From Minisyncoccota bacterium (GTDB taxonomy: Bacteria > Patescibacteriota > Minisyncoccia > Phycocordibacterales > UBA9973), in NCBI GenBank assembly GCA_041662525.1, contig JBAZSF010000001.1, positions 105,383 to 169,382 on the forward strand: a stretch of 64,000 nucleotides of DNA, in the 5' to 3' direction. Positions 13,627-56,132 of the stretch are shown here, piece after piece (the stretch's first letter is position 1; every line of letters starts with the position of its first letter). The translations under genes were made by a program, and so were the position numbers. Under the pieces are notes generated by a model. That model was not told the origin of the DNA and searched no databases. It saw only the letters and a list, made by a program, of their open reading frames with translations.

Positions 13627-15351
13627 CTAATAAATTTCTTGTTGATAACAACGTTCACAGTAAACTATTTCTGGTCGATCTGGCGCGTAACTAGTCTCAA
13701 ATTCTACTTCACATTTTTGTGTGCCATGTATGTGATTTTTTTTATCACACATACATTGCCTACGAAAAAAAAGAGGTAAATTTCGTAAGGTTAAACGTTC
13801 ATAATGCCGACAATTAATGCAAAAACGCGGTAATGGAAGATTCATTCTTTTTAAAAAATCAAGTTCTGATTTGATTATGCGAAAAGCCCCGGTGCATTCG
13901 TGTTCACAAGACTCATCGTGTGCACATTGAATAGCCTGATTAAGTATGTCATCACTTACATCATTGATATTATCTAAGATGTCTTTATTTTTTAAAGTAA
14001 ATTTATAATTTTGTTTTGTAGTTTCGTACCACGAAAACCCTTTCCTCTTTGCATCTTCTTTACCCAATGGAAAAAATTCGTAAGCAGTAGTTGCTTTGTA
14101 TGGAAAAAAAGAAAATTCACTTGGGAAAAATTCTCCATATTCTTTTGCTTGTTTCATATGTTCAATTATTTTGGGCACTAATTTTACATATTCTTCTTTT
14201 GTGTACTGTTTATTAAAAATACAATATTGCTTATTTCGAAGCGAAACACATCCAAAAAGATCTGATGAATTACTGCAAAAAACACAATAAGTTAAATTTT
14301 TTACATTTGTATAACAATAAGCACTAAATTTTATATTTGATCCCCCATTTCCAACAATAAGACTTTCGTAAATAAGTTCTACATTTTCTCCATAATTTGA
14401 ATAATCATAGCAATCCTTTACAGGTCCCATTAAAATATTTTGGACAAATTTGCTATCTTCCACCATCCTTACACGAAAACAATATTTTGCATTCTTAGAC
14501 CCATAAACATAATCACCAGAAACATTCACATTTTGACGATCGTGAATATATTTTTGCGGGTAATCAAGCCAATGTTTATATACCTCATCTTTTAATACTC
14601 TTAAGGCTTTATTAGAACCTAAATTTAATTCTTTAATATTTTTTAAATAATCTTCTCTAGAATATTGTTTATTAAAAATGCAATATGATTTATTGCGAAG
14701 ATTAATTGAACCAAAACAACTATTGCATCCAATACAATCTTTACACAAAATCATTTCCTGACAACTCTCACAATCAACAGAAAAAAATGTTTTATAACAA
14801 GCTGTAGTATTAATATTTCCATAACTCAATTCACATTGATTTGTCATATGGCTATCAAAGCATTGTTTAGAACCCTTATCCCAAATTAAATATGCAGAAT
14901 CTTCCGCATAAGAGACTCCTCCTCGAACCAAATAACAATTTTTTACATCATGCACATTAGTGCAATAGTAACAATTCACTAAATTATACATAGAATGCGC
15001 AGGTAGTGGCACCCTTAAAAGTAAACTTTTAAACTGTTCGAAAAATGTTTTTGTAAAATCAAAATCACGAGCATACTCAAGTGGATTCCAGGCATCAGAA
15101 ATCCAATAATCTCGATCATATATTTTATAAGGACTTTCTTCGGGAAAAAGTGAAAAAATTTCTTTTCCACCAAGAGCTTCCTTTTTCTTAAATAAATGCC
15201 AATCATTACGCCAGGCCATTCTTCGCTGCATCCTGCATTCCGGACAAAAAGTAGGCGGAGGTACTTTTATCTTTTCATAAAAATTAAAATCCTCCGGCTC
15301 TATGACAAATTCTTTCTTACAATTTTGGCAATTTTTTGTTTCAGATTTCAT
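13627..15351 (-). CDS. Cysteine-rich internally duplicated zinc-ribbon protein, paralog 2
   Basis: 574 aa. First ~45 and last ~30 residues are almost identical to paralog 1 ('MKSETKNCQNCKKEFVIEPEDFNFYEKIKVPPPTFCPECR' and 'KCEVEFETSYAPDRPEIVYCERCYQQEIY'); middle region divergent. Confidence 0.6.
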   Translation of the reverse strand: MKSETKNCQNCKKEFVIEPEDFNFYEKIKVPPPTFCPECRMQRRMAWRNDWHLFKKKEALGGKEIFSLFPEESPYKIYDRDYWISDAWNPLEYARDFDFTKTFFEQFKSLLLRVPLPAHSMYNLVNCYYCTNVHDVKNCYLVRGGVSYAEDSAYLIWDKGSKQCFDSHMTNQCELSYGNINTTACYKTFFSVDCESCQEMILCKDCIGCNSCFGSINLRNKSYCIFNKQYSREDYLKNIKELNLGSNKALRVLKDEVYKHWLDYPQKYIHDRQNVNVSGDYVYGSKNAKYCFRVRMVEDSKFVQNILMGPVKDCYDYSNYGENVELIYESLIVGNGGSNIKFSAYCYTNVKNLTYCVFCSNSSDLFGCVSLRNKQYCIFNKQYTKEEYVKLVPKIIEHMKQAKEYGEFFPSEFSFFPYKATTAYEFFPLGKEDAKRKGFSWYETTKQNYKFTLKNKDILDNINDVSDDILNQAIQCAHDESCEHECTGAFRIIKSELDFLKRMNLPLPRFCINCRHYERLTLRNLPLFFRRQCMCDKKNHIHGTQKCEVEFETSYAPDRPEIVYCERCYQQEIY

Positions 15352-15361
15352 AATCTTACCT

Positions 15362-15406
15362 TTTCCCCTTCTTCCCCTTCACCAGGTGAAGGGGAAGAAG
15401 GGGAAA
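15362..15406. repeat. 45-bp perfect palindrome (22-bp arms, 1-nt centre), GC-rich, between Cys-rich paralogs 3 and 2
   Basis: tttccccttcttccccttcacc a ggtgaaggggaagaaggggaaa, read directly; the two arms are exact reverse complements. Confidence 0.9.
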
Positions 15407-15408
15407 CT

Positions 15409-17097
15409 TTAATTTATATTTTGCTTGTAACATTCTTCACAGGCGATTTTTTGATATCCCCATTCTGGTAAATAATACGCTTCAATATCTTTTTTACAAT
15501 AAAAACATTTATATGAATACGCTTGCAAAACAGTTAAATATTTTAAACTATTTTTTATTCTCACATCAAAATGATAACGCGGGAGCGGTATATTATTTTC
15601 TTTATAAAAAGAAAGTTCATTTTGGGCAATATTAAAACGCCAACCTGTTTCTGGGCATAAAAGTGCCTGAGTGATAATAGTATCCGAAACATCTTTCACA
15701 TCATCAGGAAGTTCGTTTGTAGGCATCCCATCTGTCTGACCTTCTGTTGTATCTTCCCAATAACCACCAATCTTTAGCATATCTTCTTTTTTTGTGTTTG
15801 GAAAATAAAAAAACCCAGTAGAGAAATTAAATGGTCCAAGACTCATGGAATAAGGCAAAAATTTTCCATACTCACCTCTTTTTTTCATATCAGAAATAAT
15901 CTCATCCCGTAATTTTTCATATTCCTCTTTAGAATACTGCTTATTTAAAATACAATATTTCTTTTTCCTCAAACCCACACAACCAAAACAATATTCACAC
16001 TCAATACATAAATCTAAATATTCGGAATATCTAGAAGAAGACCAGCTAGAATATTTGAGAGCATAACCGCTGGGTTGGCAAGAACTACAATTCCCTGATA
16101 TTTCTAAATCCTGACAGCCGGTAATATCAATACAAGATTCCAATCCTCTACCCCTAATACAATTAGAACAATCTTCGGATTCTGAAATCGTAAAACAATT
16201 ATGACAATTTTTACAATCCAATAAATAATCTCCAAAAGAATTATGAACTTTTAAATTAAAATTAGGTCTATGCACTACTTCTTCTTGAACTATTTCTTCA
16301 AAATGTTTTTTATGCTTTTGGATAGAATCATAGGAACCAAGTTGAAATGATTTGATTTTTTTATCATATTCTTCTTTGGAGTATTGAACATTTTCTATGC
16401 AAAAAGATTTATTGCGAAGATTCCAGCACATAAAACAATCCTGACAATTCCGACAGTCATATAAAAAGTAAGAATTTATGCAATCTCGAGAATGTTTAGA
16501 GTAAAAAAGTTTATAAGAATGATGGCACTCAGAAGAGTCAAAACATTTTTCACTATTGTAACAAACTATCACATCAATAGAATTTTTTACATTGATGTTT
16601 CTATATGAATAAAATAAGTTTTCACAATCCACCATAGAACGTGAAAGATAACTATCTTTACAACTCCAAACATCATCGCACCAATCACATCCTGTGCTTT
16701 TACTACCATCTTGATGCGGACGAGGCACTTTTTCTTGGAGATTTTTTAATTGCTCAAAAAATGTTTTTTTCTCATCGTAATCTTCTCCATAATTCATTGC
16801 ATCCCATTTATCGCTGTACCATTCAGAAAGAGTGTAGATTGGATATCTGCTATTCTCCGGCAAAACTGTAATCAAACTTTCTCCAGAAAGATCAGATTTA
16901 CCTTTGCGAAATTTTCCAAATACCCAAAAAGACAAGTGCAATTTTACCCGACAGAAAAAACAAAGTGTCGGCAACTCTATATCAACTTTTTTATATAAAG
17001 ATAATTCTCCTTCTGTAATTAAAAAATTATTTCCACAATGCTCACAAATATTAGTTTGTTGGTTCTTTGTATTCATATACATTGACCCTCGCGGCAC
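15409..17097 (-). CDS. Cysteine-rich internally duplicated zinc-ribbon protein, paralog 3 (most divergent; start codon ambiguous, overlaps grpE 3' end)
   Basis: 562 aa. N-terminal 'CEHCGNNFLITEGELSLYKKVDIELPTLCFFCR', central 'CRNCQDCFMCWNLRNKSFC', 'CFGCVGLRKKKYCILNKQYSKEEY', C-terminal 'CFYCKK...CEECYKQ'. Alternative starts: MYMNT at 17082 or MNT at 17076. Confidence 0.55.
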   Translation of the reverse strand: MPRGSMYMNTKNQQTNICEHCGNNFLITEGELSLYKKVDIELPTLCFFCRVKLHLSFWVFGKFRKGKSDLSGESLITVLPENSRYPIYTLSEWYSDKWDAMNYGEDYDEKKTFFEQLKNLQEKVPRPHQDGSKSTGCDWCDDVWSCKDSYLSRSMVDCENLFYSYRNINVKNSIDVIVCYNSEKCFDSSECHHSYKLFYSKHSRDCINSYFLYDCRNCQDCFMCWNLRNKSFCIENVQYSKEEYDKKIKSFQLGSYDSIQKHKKHFEEIVQEEVVHRPNFNLKVHNSFGDYLLDCKNCHNCFTISESEDCSNCIRGRGLESCIDITGCQDLEISGNCSSCQPSGYALKYSSWSSSRYSEYLDLCIECEYCFGCVGLRKKKYCILNKQYSKEEYEKLRDEIISDMKKRGEYGKFLPYSMSLGPFNFSTGFFYFPNTKKEDMLKIGGYWEDTTEGQTDGMPTNELPDDVKDVSDTIITQALLCPETGWRFNIAQNELSFYKENNIPLPRYHFDVRIKNSLKYLTVLQAYSYKCFYCKKDIEAYYLPEWGYQKIACEECYKQNIN

Positions 17098-31866: not shown

Positions 31867-33711
31867 TTATCTCTTTGATTTAGCTCTCTCTATTTCAGTT
31901 AAATATCTTTTGCGAAGTCTAACAGATTTTGGTGTAATTTCTAAATATTCATCTCCATTCATAACCTCCAATCCTCGTTCAATACTTAAAATAAAAGTAG
32001 GATTCAAAGTTATGGCTTCATCAGTACCAGAAGCTCGCATGTTAGTAAGTTGTTTGCCTTTTGTAGGATTAACAGACATGTCTTCTCCTTTCAAAACATT
32101 ACCAACAACCATACCTTCATACACATCTGTACCGTGACCTATATACAGTATACCACGTTCTTGTAAGTTTGCAAGAGAAAAAGCGACTGCTTTACCAGAA
32201 ACCATTGAAGACATAGAACCATATTCCCTCTTTTTTATTTCTCCAGCGTATTCTCTAAAACCAGTAACCCTTGAACTCATTATGCCTTCTCCTTTAGTGT
32301 CTATAATAAATTCACTGCGATACCCTAAAAGTCCGCGTGTTGGTATATCAAAAATAATCCTAGCAATACCTTCCTTTTCCACCATATCTTTCATAATGCC
32401 ACGTCTTTTACCAATTTTTTCAATGACACTTCCAGAAAATTCCATTGGAACATCGATGACTAACTCTTCATATGGTTCTGTCTTCACTCCATCGTGCTCT
32501 TTTATAATAACTTCTGGCTGAGAAACTTGCATTTCAAAACCTTCTCTTCTCATATTTTCAAGCAGTATCGCAATATGAAGTTCTCCTCGGCCATATACTT
32601 TAAAAAATGAAGGACCTGATTTATCTTCTTGAACTGGGGAAAAATCAACTTTTAATCCAACGTTTATCTCTAATTCTTTTTCCAATCTTTCTTTGATTTG
32701 TCTGGAGGTAACAAACTTGCCTTCAAGGCCAGCAAAAGGAGAATCATTTACTAAAAAATTAAGCGAAAGAGTCGGCTCATCAATAGCAATGTGTGGCAAT
32801 ATCTCTACGCTCTCGTCTTCGCAAATTGTTTCTCCGATATAAATATCTGGAATTCCAGCCAAAAGAACGATATCCCCCGAAGAGGCAGAATCTGTTTCTT
32901 TTCTGTTTATGCCTTCAAATATAAAAAGCTTTGTAATTTTTCCTTTTCTTGTACCACTCTCGCCTTTTATAAAAACCTGACTACCAGATGTTATTTTTCC
33001 AGAATAAATCCTAGCCACTGCCATTCTGCCTAGAAAATTATCATAACCCAAATTAAAAACTTGCGAGGACATTTTTCCTTCCTCATTAATAGAAGCAGGT
33101 GGAACTTTTTCTAATATTAAATCCAATAAAGGTGAAAGGCCTGCACTGAGCGAAGTCGAAGTGTCTGTAGACTCATCACCTAAATTTTTAAATGCTTTTC
33201 CTTGTCGCCCAATTGCATAGATTGTTTCAAAATTTGCTTGCTCTTCATTTGCGCCTAATTCAAAAAATAATTCCAAAATTTCTTCATGTACTCTATGCGG
33301 ATCAGCTGCCGGCTTATCAATTTTATTAATGACCACTATTGGTTTAAGACCTAATTCTAAAGATTTTTTCAAAACAAATCTAGTTTGTGGCATTGGCCCT
33401 TCTACCGCATCCACCAATAAAAGCACAGAATCTATGGCACGCAAAACACGCTCTACTTCAGAACCGAAATCCGCATGGCCAGGAGTATCCACGATATTTA
33501 TCTTCGTTGCGGGACGTCCTGAGTCTTTCGAAGGATAGTAAATAGAAGTATTTTTAGAATAAATAGTAATACCACGTTCTTTTTCTAGATCGTTTGAATC
33601 CATGGAAAGTCCTTCATCTTGAAGACCACCATTTTGCTTCATTAATGCATCAGTCAAGGTTGTCTTGCCATGATCCACGTGAGCTATTATTGCTATATTT
33701 CTAATTTCCAT
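31867..33711 (-). CDS. typA: Translational GTPase TypA/BipA
   Basis: 'IRNIAIIAHVDHGKTTLTDALM', 'DTPGHADF', 614 aa with BipA-specific C-terminal domain. Confidence 0.9.
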   Translation of the reverse strand: MEIRNIAIIAHVDHGKTTLTDALMKQNGGLQDEGLSMDSNDLEKERGITIYSKNTSIYYPSKDSGRPATKINIVDTPGHADFGSEVERVLRAIDSVLLLVDAVEGPMPQTRFVLKKSLELGLKPIVVINKIDKPAADPHRVHEEILELFFELGANEEQANFETIYAIGRQGKAFKNLGDESTDTSTSLSAGLSPLLDLILEKVPPASINEEGKMSSQVFNLGYDNFLGRMAVARIYSGKITSGSQVFIKGESGTRKGKITKLFIFEGINRKETDSASSGDIVLLAGIPDIYIGETICEDESVEILPHIAIDEPTLSLNFLVNDSPFAGLEGKFVTSRQIKERLEKELEINVGLKVDFSPVQEDKSGPSFFKVYGRGELHIAILLENMRREGFEMQVSQPEVIIKEHDGVKTEPYEELVIDVPMEFSGSVIEKIGKRRGIMKDMVEKEGIARIIFDIPTRGLLGYRSEFIIDTKGEGIMSSRVTGFREYAGEIKKREYGSMSSMVSGKAVAFSLANLQERGILYIGHGTDVYEGMVVGNVLKGEDMSVNPTKGKQLTNMRASGTDEAITLNPTFILSIERGLEVMNGDEYLEITPKSVRLRKRYLTEIERAKSKR

Positions 33712-40503: not shown

Positions 40504-41745
40504 CTAATCATACCATTTTTTTAATTTAGTCAAAATTTTTGATAAAACTTTTACAGTATAGTCTATATCCTTTTTAGTTGTATCTCTACCTAAAGAAAAA
40601 CGTACTCCGCCCAACTCGTCATTTACCAAGGGTTCCCCTTGGTATTGCACTTGACGAATTGCTTTAATGACATCTGAGCCTCCGCTTTCTCCGCTTTTGC
40701 AAGCGCTTTTAGCTGAAGCCATAATTCCCTTATCAGAAAGCTCAATAACCAAAAGATCACTCGGGATATTGGCAAATGTTACGTTTACATTATTCGGCAA
40801 TCTATTTACTAAATCGCCATTTACTATACAGTTATTCGGACGTTGGACGTCCGAAATTCGGACGTCCAACGTCCGAAAAAAATAATCTCGCAACTTAATC
40901 AAACGTTTTACTTCTTTTTCTTTTATTTTTTGTACTGATTTCAATGCTCGAGAAAACTTTAAAATCTCCGGCAAATTTTCTGTCCCTGGACGAATTCCCC
41001 CTTCTTGATCTCCCCCACCAAACACCTTCGCAAGATTAACTGTTTTCTTTTTATAAAGAATTCCGACCCTGCCGGCTCCTTCTATTTTTGAACCAGAAAG
41101 TGAAAGCAAATCTACCCCTAATTTTTCAACATTCAGACCTAAATAATTTACCGCTTGCACTGCATCAGTATGGAAAATAGGAAAAAGAGTTAAGTTTATT
41201 TTTTTATAATATCTAATTATCTTTGCAATTTCCTTTATGGGTTGAATTGTGCCGATTTCATTATTCACATACATTACTGAAACAAGCACAGTATTTTTTT
41301 TAATTTCCTTTTTTATTTTTTGGGGATCTACTATTCCATTTGCTTCCACTGGTACGATAGTTATTTCTGCTAGTTTTCTTTTTGCTAATAATTTATAAGT
41401 CTCAAGAACGGATGGATGTTCTATGTTCGTCGTTATGATATGTGGTAAAACTTTTCCTTGCCAATTTAAAACCACCCCTTGAATTGCGAGATTATTACTC
41501 TCCGTTCCGCCACTGGTAAAAATAATTTCTTCTGGCCTAGCACCTAAAATATCAGAAACTTCTCTCCGCGCAATTTGAAGTTTAATTTTTGCCTCTACTC
41601 CAGCAGAATGCACAGAACTAGGGTTTGCTCTCGCGCTAGCGGCATAATCAAAATAGATATATTTATTTGGTTTTTTATTTGAGCTGTTATTTGATTTGGG
41701 CATAAAAATAGTATATATTGAAAATACATGAACACAAAGCTTCAA
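40504..41745 (-). CDS. Cysteine desulfurase (NifS/IscS-like, class V aminotransferase) carrying an in-frame 43-bp palindromic insertion
   Basis: 'IYFDYAASARANPSSVHSAG', PLP-Lys region 'SLSGSKIEGAG', active-site Cys 'SAKSACKSGESG'; 413 aa. Confidence 0.85.
   Translation of the reverse strand: MKLCVHVFSIYTIFMPKSNNSSNKKPNKYIYFDYAASARANPSSVHSAGVEAKIKLQIARREVSDILGARPEEIIFTSGGTESNNLAIQGVVLNWQGKVLPHIITTNIEHPSVLETYKLLAKRKLAEITIVPVEANGIVDPQKIKKEIKKNTVLVSVMYVNNEIGTIQPIKEIAKIIRYYKKINLTLFPIFHTDAVQAVNYLGLNVEKLGVDLLSLSGSKIEGAGRVGILYKKKTVNLAKVFGGGDQEGGIRPGTENLPEILKFSRALKSVQKIKEKEVKRLIKLRDYFFRTLDVRISDVQRPNNCIVNGDLVNRLPNNVNVTFANIPSDLLVIELSDKGIMASAKSACKSGESGGSDVIKAIRQVQYQGEPLVNDELGGVRFSLGRDTTKKDIDYTVKVLSKILTKLKKWYD
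40835..40877. repeat. 43-bp near-perfect GC-rich palindrome ttcggacgttggacgtccgaa-a-ttcggacgtccaacgtccgaa (four alternating CGGACGT/ACGTCCG units) inside the cysteine desulfurase ORF
   Basis: Read directly; encodes 'FFRTLDVRISDVQRP', about 7 aa longer than the remembered IscS 'LWNGIKDIEEVYLNGD' segment. Confidence 0.85.
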
Positions 41746-56078: not shown

Positions 56079-56100
56079 ATAAACTAAACAAAAAAAATCC

Positions 56101-56132
56101 CGCATAATGCGGGATTTTTTTTGTTTATGTAG
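56101..56132. terminator. Bidirectional rho-independent terminator (aaaaaaatcccgcat-aa-tgcgggatttttttt)
   Basis: Perfect 10-bp GC-containing stem flanked by A-run and T-run. Confidence 0.7.

What the first reader, a model, noticed from the sequence alone, without database searches (positions are those of the whole stretch)
40835..40877. 43-bp palindrome of alternating CGGACGT/ACGTCCG units inside the cysteine desulfurase gene
ttcggacgttggacgtccgaa-a-ttcggacgtccaacgtccgaa is an almost perfect palindrome at ~58% GC lying in-frame in the NifS/IscS-like ORF (encoding 'FFRTLDVRISDVQRP'). The protein segment is ~7 aa longer than the corresponding IscS region I recall. It is either another in-frame palindromic mobile mini-element or a protein-binding site array embedded in coding sequence; ACGT cores are typical of some TF or restriction sites.
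Basis: seen in the sequence. Interest (0 to 1): 0.55.

Follow-up and report, generated by a model that had tools for sequence, protein, structure and literature searches.

The report
In-frame REP hairpin pair in gene
The 43-base palindrome is a back-to-back pair of a small repeated DNA hairpin, of the kind moved by a dedicated transposase, that sits in-frame in a tolerant surface loop of an essential enzyme gene in an ultra-small (Patescibacteria) bacterium.

Summary
Window 40835-40877 is a 43-nt palindrome, perfect except for its centre base. It is made of two 21-nt hairpins, TTCGGACGT-NNN-ACGTCCGAA, and lies in-frame in a cysteine desulfurase gene.

It is not a one-off. The same 21-nt hairpin is a dispersed repeat in Patescibacteria genomes. 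It occurs between genes and in-frame, in all three reading frames, in many housekeeping genes. An almost identical pair (two changed bases at one end) sits in a GMP synthase gene, and an exact pair differing only in its centre base lies in another, unidentified ORF.

In seven related loci the hairpin, or a stem variant with compensatory changes, flanks and also lies inside a RAYT-like tyrosine transposase gene. The element is therefore a REP dimer (REPIN-like).

The desulfurase loop is hypervariable. Orthologues carry this pair, other palindromes, or nothing, and the closest relative (81% identical) carries a different palindrome. Where the pair is shared, it is 87-93% identical at the DNA level, while third codon positions elsewhere in the gene match only 42-51%. 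One orthologue has a compensatory change that preserves the long hairpin.

No transposase gene lies in this window, and mobility is inferred, not shown.

Verdict: a new member of a known kind, with some unusual features. Interest is moderate.

The parts
40835..40877 (.). REP dimer (REPIN-like): two 21-nt hairpin units in head-to-head orientation with a 1-nt spacer. It can fold as one 20-bp hairpin or as two 9-bp hairpins.
40835..40855 (.). REP unit 1: TTCGGACGT-TGG-ACGTCCGAA (9-bp stem, 3-nt loop)
   Evidence: Exact copies occur in 28 further Patescibacteria loci.
40857..40877 (.). REP unit 2: TTCGGACGT-CCA-ACGTCCGAA (same stem, complementary loop)
40504..41745 (-). Host gene: class-V aminotransferase-fold cysteine desulfurase (NifS/IscS-like). 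The likely start is the ATG at 41703. The REP dimer encodes residues 276-290 (FRTLDVRISDVQRPN), counted from that ATG.
   Evidence: PF00266 homologues; PDB cysteine desulfurases, E=1.5e-65; AF2 model: the insert lies at the end of helix 261-283 and in the following coil
40624..40644 (.). Second in-frame hairpin in the same gene, with the same 9-3-9 geometry but a different sequence: TACCAAGGG-TTC-CCCTTGGTA, encoding YQGEPLV. This stretch is also extra relative to solved homologues. Its family is unknown.
   Evidence: No further copy was found in the loci held.

Best explanation
The palindrome is a head-to-head dimer of a 21-nt repetitive palindromic element (a REP). A dimer of this kind corresponds to a REPIN. 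The family is spread through Patescibacteria, especially Paceibacteria.

Its cognate enzyme is a RAYT-like HUH/Y1 single-strand DNA transposase, encoded elsewhere in such genomes. That gene is flanked by the same hairpin and also contains it.

Inferred mechanism, by analogy with characterised RAYT/REP and IS200/IS605 systems: the hairpin forms in single-stranded DNA, for example at the replication fork. The transposase recognises, cuts and rejoins it, which disperses copies around the genome.

The unit is 21 nt, exactly 7 codons, and has no stop codon in any of the six frames. Copies that land in permissive protein loops therefore survive as short peptide insertions.

Here a dimer sits at a helix-to-strand junction on the surface of the cysteine desulfurase. 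It is translated as RTLDVRISDVQRP and is most likely neutral for the enzyme.

Shown: the anatomy, the repeat family, the intragenic in-frame copies, the association with RAYT genes, the variability of the orthologous loop, and DNA-level conservation of the palindrome.

Inferred: mobilisation by the RAYT, translation of the insert, and neutrality for the host.
For: 1. Dispersed family. Scanning one genome per species for TTCGGACGTNNNACGTCCGAA gave 52 loci.
- About 37 of them are Patescibacteria, although this group is a small share of the 596 Gb searched.
- My estimate of the chance expectation for the whole collection is about 9 sites.
- One Paceibacterota genome, JBAZRK01, has 15 exact copies, 7 of them within 2.2 kb.

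2. Same element in other genes.
- Copies lie in-frame in UvrB, PurH, GuaA, GatB, MurB, thioredoxin reductase, ParB, a glycosyltransferase and other desulfurase sites.
- They are read in all three frames, as SDVGRPN, FGRPTSE or IRTLDVR.
- 22 of 40 elements lie in ORFs of at least 200 aa.
- A TGG/CCA dimer with the same 'a' spacer, differing from the window's only by two changed bases at one end, occurs in GuaA (L026); an exact pair of units with a 't' spacer occurs in L031.

3. Dimer polarity. 9 of 11 dimers have complementary loops, and 8 of 11 have 22-nt spacing.

4. RAYT link.
- Loci retrieved by the hairpin alone contain Y1 transposase genes in L011, L036, L052, L010, L030 and L032.
- Pfam Y1_Tnp scores above the gathering threshold.
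- NCBIfam REP_Tyr_transpos is the only family hit, though below its cut-off.
- JGI names close relatives 'REP element-mobilizing transposase RayT'.
- Each gene has hairpins upstream, inside and at its 3' end.
- In L139 and L140, RAYTs with a variant internal hairpin (GGGTGT/ACACCC, two compensatory pairs) are flanked by that same variant.

5. Turnover at the desulfurase loop.
- Orthologues carry this REP, three other palindromes, or none. The types are interspersed on the protein tree.
- The nearest relative, P0001/L133 at 81% aa identity, has a different palindrome.

6. DNA-level conservation. Between the window and L048, L134 and L136, the palindrome is 87-93% identical. Its third codon positions match at 80-93%, against 42-51% in the rest of the gene.
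Against: - No RAYT gene is present in the 64-kb window.
- The dimer is the only intact copy of the family in the window.
- No near-identical strain with an empty site was found, so insertion is inferred from distant orthologues only.
- No target-site duplication or conserved unpaired GTAG/CGTC tag could be defined.
- A 43-nt dimer is not a multiple of three. The event must therefore have involved +2 or -1 nt or replacement of native codons. The native helix residues (KKLxxL in orthologues) are indeed missing here.
- Several distant orthologues carry the pair in the same loop. The compensatory outer-arm change in L134 (TTCGG..CCGAA to TGCGG..CCGCA) could equally mean long-term selection on the hairpin.
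Confidence: 0.8

Rival explanations
1. The hairpin at this position is an old, vertically inherited structured element kept by selection for a host function. Possible functions include an mRNA stability or RNase III site, a translational pause aiding folding of the small domain, or a regulatory DNA cruciform. On this view it is no longer a passive mobile-element copy.
For: - Many orthologues carry some hairpin in exactly this loop.
- The palindrome is far better conserved than synonymous sites.
- A compensatory change keeps the long hairpin in L134.
- The RNA fold is very stable, at -38.7 kcal/mol.
Against: - Orthologues with no hairpin exist (L058, L061, P0072, P0059).
- The closest relative has an unrelated palindrome.
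- The same hairpin sits in many other genes and in intergenic DNA.
- The insertion point differs by 3 codons between orthologue groups.
- No terminator-like tail and no Rfam family were found.
- Arm-to-arm correction by template switching could produce compensatory changes without selection.
Confidence: 0.12
2. The palindrome arose locally, by inverted or tandem duplication of a 21-nt stretch through replication template switching. It is unrelated to any mobile family.
For: - The two halves differ only by loop inversion.
- Loop flips (TGG to CCA) are seen between orthologues: window Q versus L048 G, and the RAYT of L011 versus L036. This shows that template-switch-type events do act on these hairpins.
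Against: - The identical 21-mer occurs in dozens of unrelated genes and genomes and beside RAYT genes.
- An almost identical dimer (same spacer, two changed bases at one end) occurs in GuaA of another genome, and an exact pair of units with a different centre base occurs in L031.
Confidence: 0.03
3. The units are paired DNA-uptake signal sequences for natural transformation, as with Neisseria DUS inverted pairs. Alternatively they are an array of binding sites for a transcription factor or a restriction-modification enzyme.
For: - Patescibacteria encode competence and type IV pilus genes (established knowledge).
- The 9-mer TTCGGACGT resembles the complement of the Neisseria DUS, TTCAGACGGC (my observation).
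- The element contains GACGTC and ACGT cores.
Against: - Free-standing half-sites are essentially absent: 30 of 31 lie in full hairpins in JBAZRK01 loci.
- The window has no exact half-site outside the palindrome.
- Copy density is far below that of uptake sequences.
- Stem variants change by compensatory pairs together with their RAYT. That points to structure recognition, not recognition of a linear word.
Confidence: 0.03
4. The palindrome is an assembly or sequencing artefact, such as a chimeric fold-back.
For: Perfect palindromes can arise from fold-back artefacts in some library types.
Against: - It is in-frame within an intact, well-conserved gene.
- The same structure appears at the same site in independent assemblies from different projects (L048, L134/L135, L136).
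Confidence: 0.01

Closest known systems
REP / REPIN elements with RAYT transposases (E. coli BIMEs, Pseudomonas REPINs; Nunvar 2010, Bertels & Rainey 2011 PMC3116915, Ton-Hoang 2012, Messing 2012 PMC3479197)
   Same: - It is a short palindromic repeat dispersed in the genome.
- Inverted dimers can form a larger hairpin.
- A mostly single-copy Y1/HUH transposase gene is flanked by its cognate hairpins.
- Hairpin sequence and transposase co-vary between lineages.
   Different: - It occurs in Patescibacteria. No report was found in the library searched.
- The stem is a perfect 9 bp with a 3-nt loop, and no unpaired GTAG-type tag was detected.
- The dimer spacer is only 1 nt.
- About half of the copies are intragenic.
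- The RAYT carries a cognate hairpin in-frame inside its own coding sequence.
- The RAYT scores below NCBIfam's RAYT cut-off.
Intragenic REPs (Di Nocera et al. 2013, PMC3733652) and Rickettsia palindromic elements (RPE; Ogata et al. 2000)
   Same: - Palindromic repeats are inserted in-frame in housekeeping genes of a reduced genome, including uvrB and other repair genes.
- They occur as singles or dimers adding roughly 7-30 aa, and head-to-head dimers predominate (versus 18, 66).
   Different: - The sequence family is unrelated, and the unit is much shorter than RPE-1 (about 100-150 bp, from my own knowledge).
[quoted passage not shown] Here a RAYT is clearly associated.
- The loop is 3 nt, against 4-5 nt in the CGTC families.
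IS200/IS605 insertion sequences and their miniature derivatives
   Same: Both use a Y1 HUH transposase that recognises subterminal DNA hairpins in single-stranded DNA (Pfam Y1_Tnp).
   Different: - The proteins here are about 219-237 aa and carry RAYT-type motifs (YHxxNRG, NHxHxxL, YxHxNP, WSS).
- The dispersed units are bare 21-nt hairpins, not elements with distinct left and right ends.
Neisseria DUS inverted pairs, dRS3 and Correia elements
   Same: These are short GC-rich repeats that often occur as inverted pairs and are sometimes found inside genes.
   Different: - The unit here is the hairpin, not a linear word.
- No TIR/TSD structure of MITE type was seen.

Membership tests
REP (repetitive extragenic palindrome) | Short (20-40 bp) palindromic unit present in many dispersed copies per genome | tested here: met
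   The 21-nt unit has 15 exact copies in the JBAZRK01 genome and 35 exact CCA/TGG copies in the loci held. Within this window only the dimer is present.
REP (repetitive extragenic palindrome) | Conserved unpaired tetranucleotide tag (GTAG or CGTC) at one foot of the hairpin | tested here: not met
   Flank profiles of 35 copies show only an A/T preference at positions -1 and +1. CGTC occurs, but inside the stem.
REP (repetitive extragenic palindrome) | Predominantly extragenic location | tested here: not met
   22 of 40 elements lie within ORFs of at least 200 aa, including the window copy.
REPIN-RAYT system | Cognate RAYT (Y1/HUH tyrosine transposase) gene flanked by the REP | tested here: met
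   This holds in related genomes: L011, L036, L052, L010, L030, L032, L139 and L140, with Pfam Y1_Tnp above cut-off. It could not be tested for the window's own genome, because no RAYT lies in the 64 kb.
REPIN-RAYT system | Two REPs in inverted orientation that together form a longer hairpin (the replicative unit) | tested here: met
   The window dimer folds as a 20-bp hairpin. 9 of 11 dimers have complementary loops.
REPIN-RAYT system | RAYT belongs to the curated REP-associated tyrosine transposase family | tested here: inconclusive
   NCBIfam NF047646 is the only hit, but at 24-37 bits against a cut-off of 80. phmmer found no solved structure. JGI calls relatives RayT.
REPIN-RAYT system | RAYT-dependent cleavage or mobilisation of the hairpin | not testable with these tools
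   This needs biochemistry or population and time-series data.
Rickettsia-type in-frame palindromic elements (RPE) | In-frame insertion in conserved protein genes, at sites tolerated by the fold | tested here: met
   In-frame copies occur in UvrB, PurH, GuaA, GatB, MurB, TrxB, ParB and the desulfurase. The window insert lies at the end of helix 261-283 and in the following coil, where the model's confidence falls (10-residue block 281-290 has mean pLDDT 61). It is extra relative to PDB homologues.
Rickettsia-type in-frame palindromic elements (RPE) | Sequence relationship to the RPE families | not tested
   No RPE sequences were compared. Unit length and loop size differ from the published descriptions.
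MITE | Terminal inverted repeats plus a direct target-site duplication | tested here: not met
   No direct duplication flanks the copies. Flanks are instead sometimes complementary to each other.
Cysteine desulfurase (host gene) | Aminotran_5 fold with the PLP lysine and catalytic cysteine regions | tested here: met
   PDB cysteine desulfurases match at E=1.5e-65 over residues 22-395. Invariant K206 and C335 are seen in the 63-sequence alignment.

The most novel reading that the evidence does not exclude
Patescibacteria may harbour a REP-RAYT system adapted to coding DNA.

Its unit would be a stop-free, 7-codon hairpin module that is repeatedly written into permissive protein loops. The copies would be kept palindromic by an active process, either RAYT-dependent or arm-to-arm template-switch correction.

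The transposase gene itself carries its cognate hairpin in-frame at one conserved position: in all 120 closest Paceibacterota RAYTs by alignment (61 with the exact SDV[G/Q/R]RP peptide, about 40 with the SGV-type stem variant, the rest more divergent), and also in Saccharibacteria RAYTs. This suggests autoregulation or a 'master copy'.

On this reading the element in the desulfurase is one visible product of a long-lived, possibly domesticated generator of protein-loop variation in ultra-small genomes.
Probability: 0.2. Interest if true: 0.75.

Novelty: new member of a known kind. Interest (0 to 1): 0.5.

Why it matters
REP/RAYT systems have been studied almost entirely in Proteobacteria. There the repeats are extragenic, and their function is still debated.

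This finding shows a REP family and its RAYT in Patescibacteria, which have some of the smallest and most streamlined bacterial genomes. About half of the copies sit inside essential genes as translated 7- or 14-residue inserts. This parallels the in-frame palindromic elements of Rickettsia, another reduced genome.

Practical consequences:
- These inserts inflate apparent protein divergence.
- They create hypervariable loops in alignments.
- They should be masked in phylogenomics of these lineages.

The conserved hairpin inside the RAYT gene also gives a concrete handle for testing how RAYTs recognise and regulate their REPs.

Tried and rejected
- A viral-contig scan for the hairpin found nothing, so there is no sign of a phage origin.
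- An Rfam scan of the gene gave only far-sub-threshold generic miRNA-precursor hairpin matches. No known RNA family fits.
- The terminator scan does not call the palindrome, because neither strand has a T-tail after it. It is not an intrinsic terminator.
- phmmer of the RAYT against PDB sequences found nothing, even at E=10.
- The metagenome scan with the desulfurase returned only about 7 close orthologues. Orthologue DNA had to be fetched one protein at a time.
- I tried to show that the other palindromes at this loop are multi-copy families too. These are types B (HSNILTN), C (MSKTVFD) and D (FSRVLG..LENF), plus the window's second hairpin.
  - The loci held contain too little sequence to decide.
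  - The only positive hint is a type-C-like hairpin 11 nt upstream of a Y1_Tnp gene in L138.
- The NJ tree of 121 desulfurases is star-like. It shows that insert types are interspersed, but it cannot count independent insertions.
- No target-site duplication or flanking tag could be defined.
- Literature searches for REP/RAYT or in-frame palindromes in Patescibacteria/CPR found no relevant paper in the held library. This is not proof that none exists.
Full report
**The observation**

Window 40835-40877 reads TTCGGACGTTGGACGTCCGAA-A-TTCGGACGTCCAACGTCCGAA. It equals its own reverse complement except at the unpaired centre base, and its GC content is 55.8% in a window of about 34% GC. The repeat finder extends the arms to 24 nt at 96% complementarity.

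The structure is nested. Each 21-nt half is itself a 9-bp stem with a 3-nt loop, and the two loops (TGG and CCA) are complementary. The sequence can therefore fold either as two small hairpins or as one 20-bp hairpin. The long form is the predicted minimum: -38.7 kcal/mol as RNA with z=-7.9, and -27.1 kcal/mol as DNA with z=-9.3. The 21-mer with up to three mismatches is expected 0.01 times in shuffles of the window and occurs twice.

The palindrome lies in-frame in ORF 40504..41745 on the minus strand and encodes FRTLDVRISDVQRPN.

**The host gene**

The ORF is a cysteine desulfurase. Its homologues carry PF00266, and solved cysteine desulfurases match at E=1.5e-65 over almost the full length. 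The best solved homologue has a 6-residue gap exactly at this site.

An AlphaFold2 model built on 63 homologues has mean pLDDT 74. It places the insert at the end of helix 261-283 and in the following coil before strand 292-294. Confidence drops there, to 61 for the block 281-290.

The best protein hits are from Candidatus Paceibacterota and Nomurabacteria, so the window comes from a Patescibacteria (CPR) genome. Gene order around the desulfurase (IF-2, DUF4446 protein, desulfurase, ClpB, BipA) is conserved in relatives.

**The hairpin is a dispersed repeat**

I scanned one genome per species (596 Gb) for TTCGGACGTNNNACGTCCGAA and obtained 52 loci. My estimate of the chance expectation for 18 fixed bases in the whole collection is about 9 sites. 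The high-GC actinobacterial and other hits are at roughly that level.

About 37 loci are AT-rich Patescibacteria: Paceibacterota, Nomura-, Campbell-, Taga-, Jorgensen- and Nealsonbacteria, and Saccharibacteria. Several of these genomes are multi-copy. JBAZRK01 has 15 exact copies, seven of them within 2.2 kb. Paceibacteria copies use the loop CCA/TGG and Saccharibacteria copies use CGG/CCG.

The unit is the hairpin and not the 9-mer. In JBAZRK01 loci 30 of 31 half-sites lie inside full hairpins. In the window the exact 9-mer occurs only inside the palindrome.

**Many copies are in-frame inside genes**

Intergenic copies are often extended by copy-specific complementary flanks and look like terminator hairpins. 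However, 22 of 40 elements lie inside ORFs of at least 200 aa.

The host genes are ordinary housekeeping genes: UvrB, PurH, GuaA, GatB (twice), MurB, thioredoxin reductase, ParB, a methyltransferase, a glycosyltransferase, and desulfurases at this and at another site.

All three reading frames are used, giving SDV[G/Q]RPN, FGR[P/W]TSE or IRT[L/S][D/N]VR. The constraint is therefore on the DNA and not on a peptide. The unit is 21 nt, exactly 7 codons, and the dimer has no stop codon in any of the six frames.

Among 62 elements there are 11 dimers. Eight have 22-nt spacing and nine have complementary loops, so they are head-to-head palindromic dimers like the window's. A dimer with the same TGG/CCA loops and the same 'a' spacer, differing only by two changed bases at its far end, sits in GuaA of a different genome (L026). 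An exact pair of units with a 't' centre base instead of 'a' sits in an unidentified 141-aa ORF (L031).

**Link to a transposase**

Loci retrieved only through the hairpin contain homologous genes of about 220-237 aa in L011, L036, L052, L010, L030 and L032.
- These match Pfam Y1_Tnp (IS200-like transposase) above the gathering score.
- They hit only NCBIfam 'REP-associated tyrosine transposase', although below its cut-off.
- They show the RAYT motifs YHxxNRG, NHxHxxL, YxHxNP and, in Saccharibacteria, WSS.
- More than 3,000 relatives exist, the top ones all from Paceibacterota. Several are named 'REP element-mobilizing transposase RayT' by JGI.

Every such gene has the hairpin upstream (-20 to -90), inside the coding sequence (+160 to +250) and at its 3' end (+675 to +745).

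The internal copy sits at one aligned position in all 120 closest homologues. In 61 of them it reads SDV[G/Q/R]RP. In about 40 others it reads SGV[G/Q]HP or a close variant, which is a stem variant (GGGTGT/ACACCC) differing by two compensatory base pairs; the remaining fifth carry more divergent peptides at the same position. The G/Q alternation corresponds to loop inversion.

In L139 and L140, whose RAYTs carry the variant internally, the flanking and neighbouring hairpins are the same variant. Hairpin and transposase thus co-vary, as described for REP classes and RAYTs in pseudomonads.

No RAYT is encoded in the 64-kb window.

**The orthologous site**

In 120 desulfurase homologues of 64-81% identity, the segment between RDYF and NGD ranges from 8 to more than 30 residues. 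I sorted the inserts into types:
- Type A is this REP or its stem variant, for example IRTLDVRFTDVQRPN and RVLDTRKTGVQHPN.
- Type B is HSNILTN..M.
- Type C is MSKTVFD, which occurs single or doubled.
- Type D is FSRVLG..LENF.
- Some orthologues have no insert.

Wherever DNA was available, types A to D are palindromes and the short versions are not. The types are interspersed on a poorly resolved NJ tree. The window's nearest relative (P0001/L133, 81% aa and 83% nt) carries type D. The position of type A also differs by three codons between orthologue groups.

The same protein has other hypervariable loops that hold palindromes:
- L138's desulfurase carries three, two of them dimers of further hairpin families: one with the 9-3-9 geometry and one 7-3-7.
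- L045's desulfurase carries a type A unit after NLAIQG.
- The window's own gene has a second 9-3-9 hairpin at 40624-40644.

The simplest reading is a high supply of hairpin insertions that are filtered by selection down to a few permissive loops. Targeting of existing hairpins cannot be excluded.

**DNA-level behaviour**

I compared the window with three orthologues that share the dimer (L048, L134, L136; 68-72% nt identity). The palindrome is 87-93% identical. Its third codon positions match at 80-93%, against 42-51% elsewhere in the gene.
- In L134 both outer arms changed together (TTCGG..CCGAA to TGCGG..CCGCA). This weakens each small hairpin but preserves the long one.
- In L136 the changes lie at the apex of the long hairpin.
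- L048 has the second loop inverted, giving G instead of Q.

So the 43-nt palindrome evolves as one unit. Three processes could produce this pattern: repeated re-insertion of the family consensus, arm-to-arm correction by template switching, or selection. The data do not separate them.

**Mechanism**

By analogy with RAYT/REP and IS200/IS605 biochemistry (established knowledge; PMC3479197, PMC3116915), the hairpin forms in single-stranded DNA and is recognised and cut by the HUH tyrosine transposase. This disperses copies. Seven-codon, stop-free units that land in tolerant loops persist as translated inserts. Here the dimer replaced part of the native helix end (KKLxxL in orthologues), and the model predicts that it extends that helix.

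I rate this explanation at 0.8. The anatomy, the repeat family, the intragenic copies, the RAYT association and the site variability are shown. Mobilisation, translation and neutrality are inferred.

**Rival explanations**

- A selected host function of the hairpin (0.12) draws on the conservation and the compensatory change. Against it stand the hairpin-free orthologues, the different element in the closest relative, the absence of a terminator tail and the absence of an Rfam family.
- A purely local duplication is contradicted by the dispersed identical copies.
- An uptake-sequence or binding-site array is contradicted by the absence of free half-sites and by the compensatory stem variants.
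- An assembly artefact is contradicted by independent assemblies that show the same structure.

**Comparison with known systems**

The element works like a REP/REPIN with its RAYT. Intragenic REPs and Rickettsia RPEs are precedents for in-frame copies in housekeeping and repair genes, with head-to-head dimers predominating (PMC3733652).

It departs from the textbook definition in four ways:
- No unpaired GTAG or CGTC tag was found.
- About half of the copies are intragenic.
- The dimer spacer is 1 nt.
- The RAYT is divergent and carries an internal cognate hairpin.

I found no paper on REP/RAYT or in-frame palindromes in Patescibacteria in the held library.

**Verdict**

It is a new member of a known kind, with a few unusual features worth following up. 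Interest is 0.5.

Noticed in passing
L011 2623-2643, L036 6230-6250, L030 1570-1590, L032 2533-2553, L139/L140 about 10183; proteins P0121-P0240: Every RAYT of this family carries its cognate hairpin in-frame at one conserved position, between the YHIYNRG strand and the HUH motif. Of the 120 closest homologues, 61 read SDV[G/Q/R]RP and about 40 read SGV[G/Q]HP or a close variant, with loop flips and compensatory stem variants; the rest are more divergent at that position. In several loci the stem is extended by 9-12 further copy-specific complementary bases. An internal REP inside a RAYT gene is not something I know from described systems. It might act in autoregulation.
   Followed up: partly
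window 40624-40644: A second in-frame hairpin lies in the same desulfurase gene. It has the same 9-bp stem and 3-nt loop geometry but a different sequence: TACCAAGGG-TTC-CCCTTGGTA, encoding YQGEPLV. The segment is also extra relative to solved homologues. No other copy was found in the loci held.
   Followed up: partly
window 33508-33534 (BipA/TypA gene 31867-33711, minus strand): The window's BipA is nearly identical to that of L133 and L138 but has exactly 7 extra residues (PSKDSGRPA versus KD). The extra stretch contains GGACGTCC, the only other occurrence of that 8-mer in the window. It may be a decayed single REP unit. A second, 8-residue insert (TSTSLSAG) lies further on in the same protein.
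   Followed up: partly
L138 10211-10258, 10507-10546, 10860-10880; L138 35-55: One orthologous desulfurase carries three in-frame palindromic modules from three different hairpin families, two of them as palindromic dimers. In the same locus a Y1_Tnp gene has a TGTCAAAG..CTTTGACA hairpin 11 nt upstream of its start. This suggests that several REP families, each with its own RAYT, exist in Paceibacteria.
   Followed up: partly
L011 2130-2144 and 2877-2891; L036 and L052 RAYT 3' ends: A conserved motif, (A)GTTTTCCACA, lies next to the hairpins that bracket the RAYT genes. It may mark the true ends of the RAYT cassette.
   Followed up: no
L008, L012, L035, L039, L049 (Amycolatopsis spp.): The same 9-nt stem occurs in a conserved longer hairpin, GGAGGAT-TTCGGACGT-T[GC]A-ACGTCCGAA-ATCCTCC, at five loci in two Amycolatopsis genomes. 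This may be an unrelated actinobacterial REP-like family that shares the core by chance.
   Followed up: no
window 15362-15406: A perfect 45-nt palindrome, TTTCCCCTTCTTCCCCTTCACC-A-GGTGAAGGGGAAGAAGGGGAAA, lies in the short gap between two tandem paralogous cysteine-rich genes (13627-15351 and 15409-17097, both on the minus strand). Its halves are not themselves hairpins, so it belongs to a different kind of element from the REP dimer.
   Followed up: no
window 56085-56127: A perfect 43-nt AT-rich palindrome with a GC core, TAAACAAAAAAAATCCCGCAT-N-ATGCGGGATTTTTTTTGTTTA, lies between convergent ORFs. It looks like a bidirectional intrinsic terminator.
   Followed up: no
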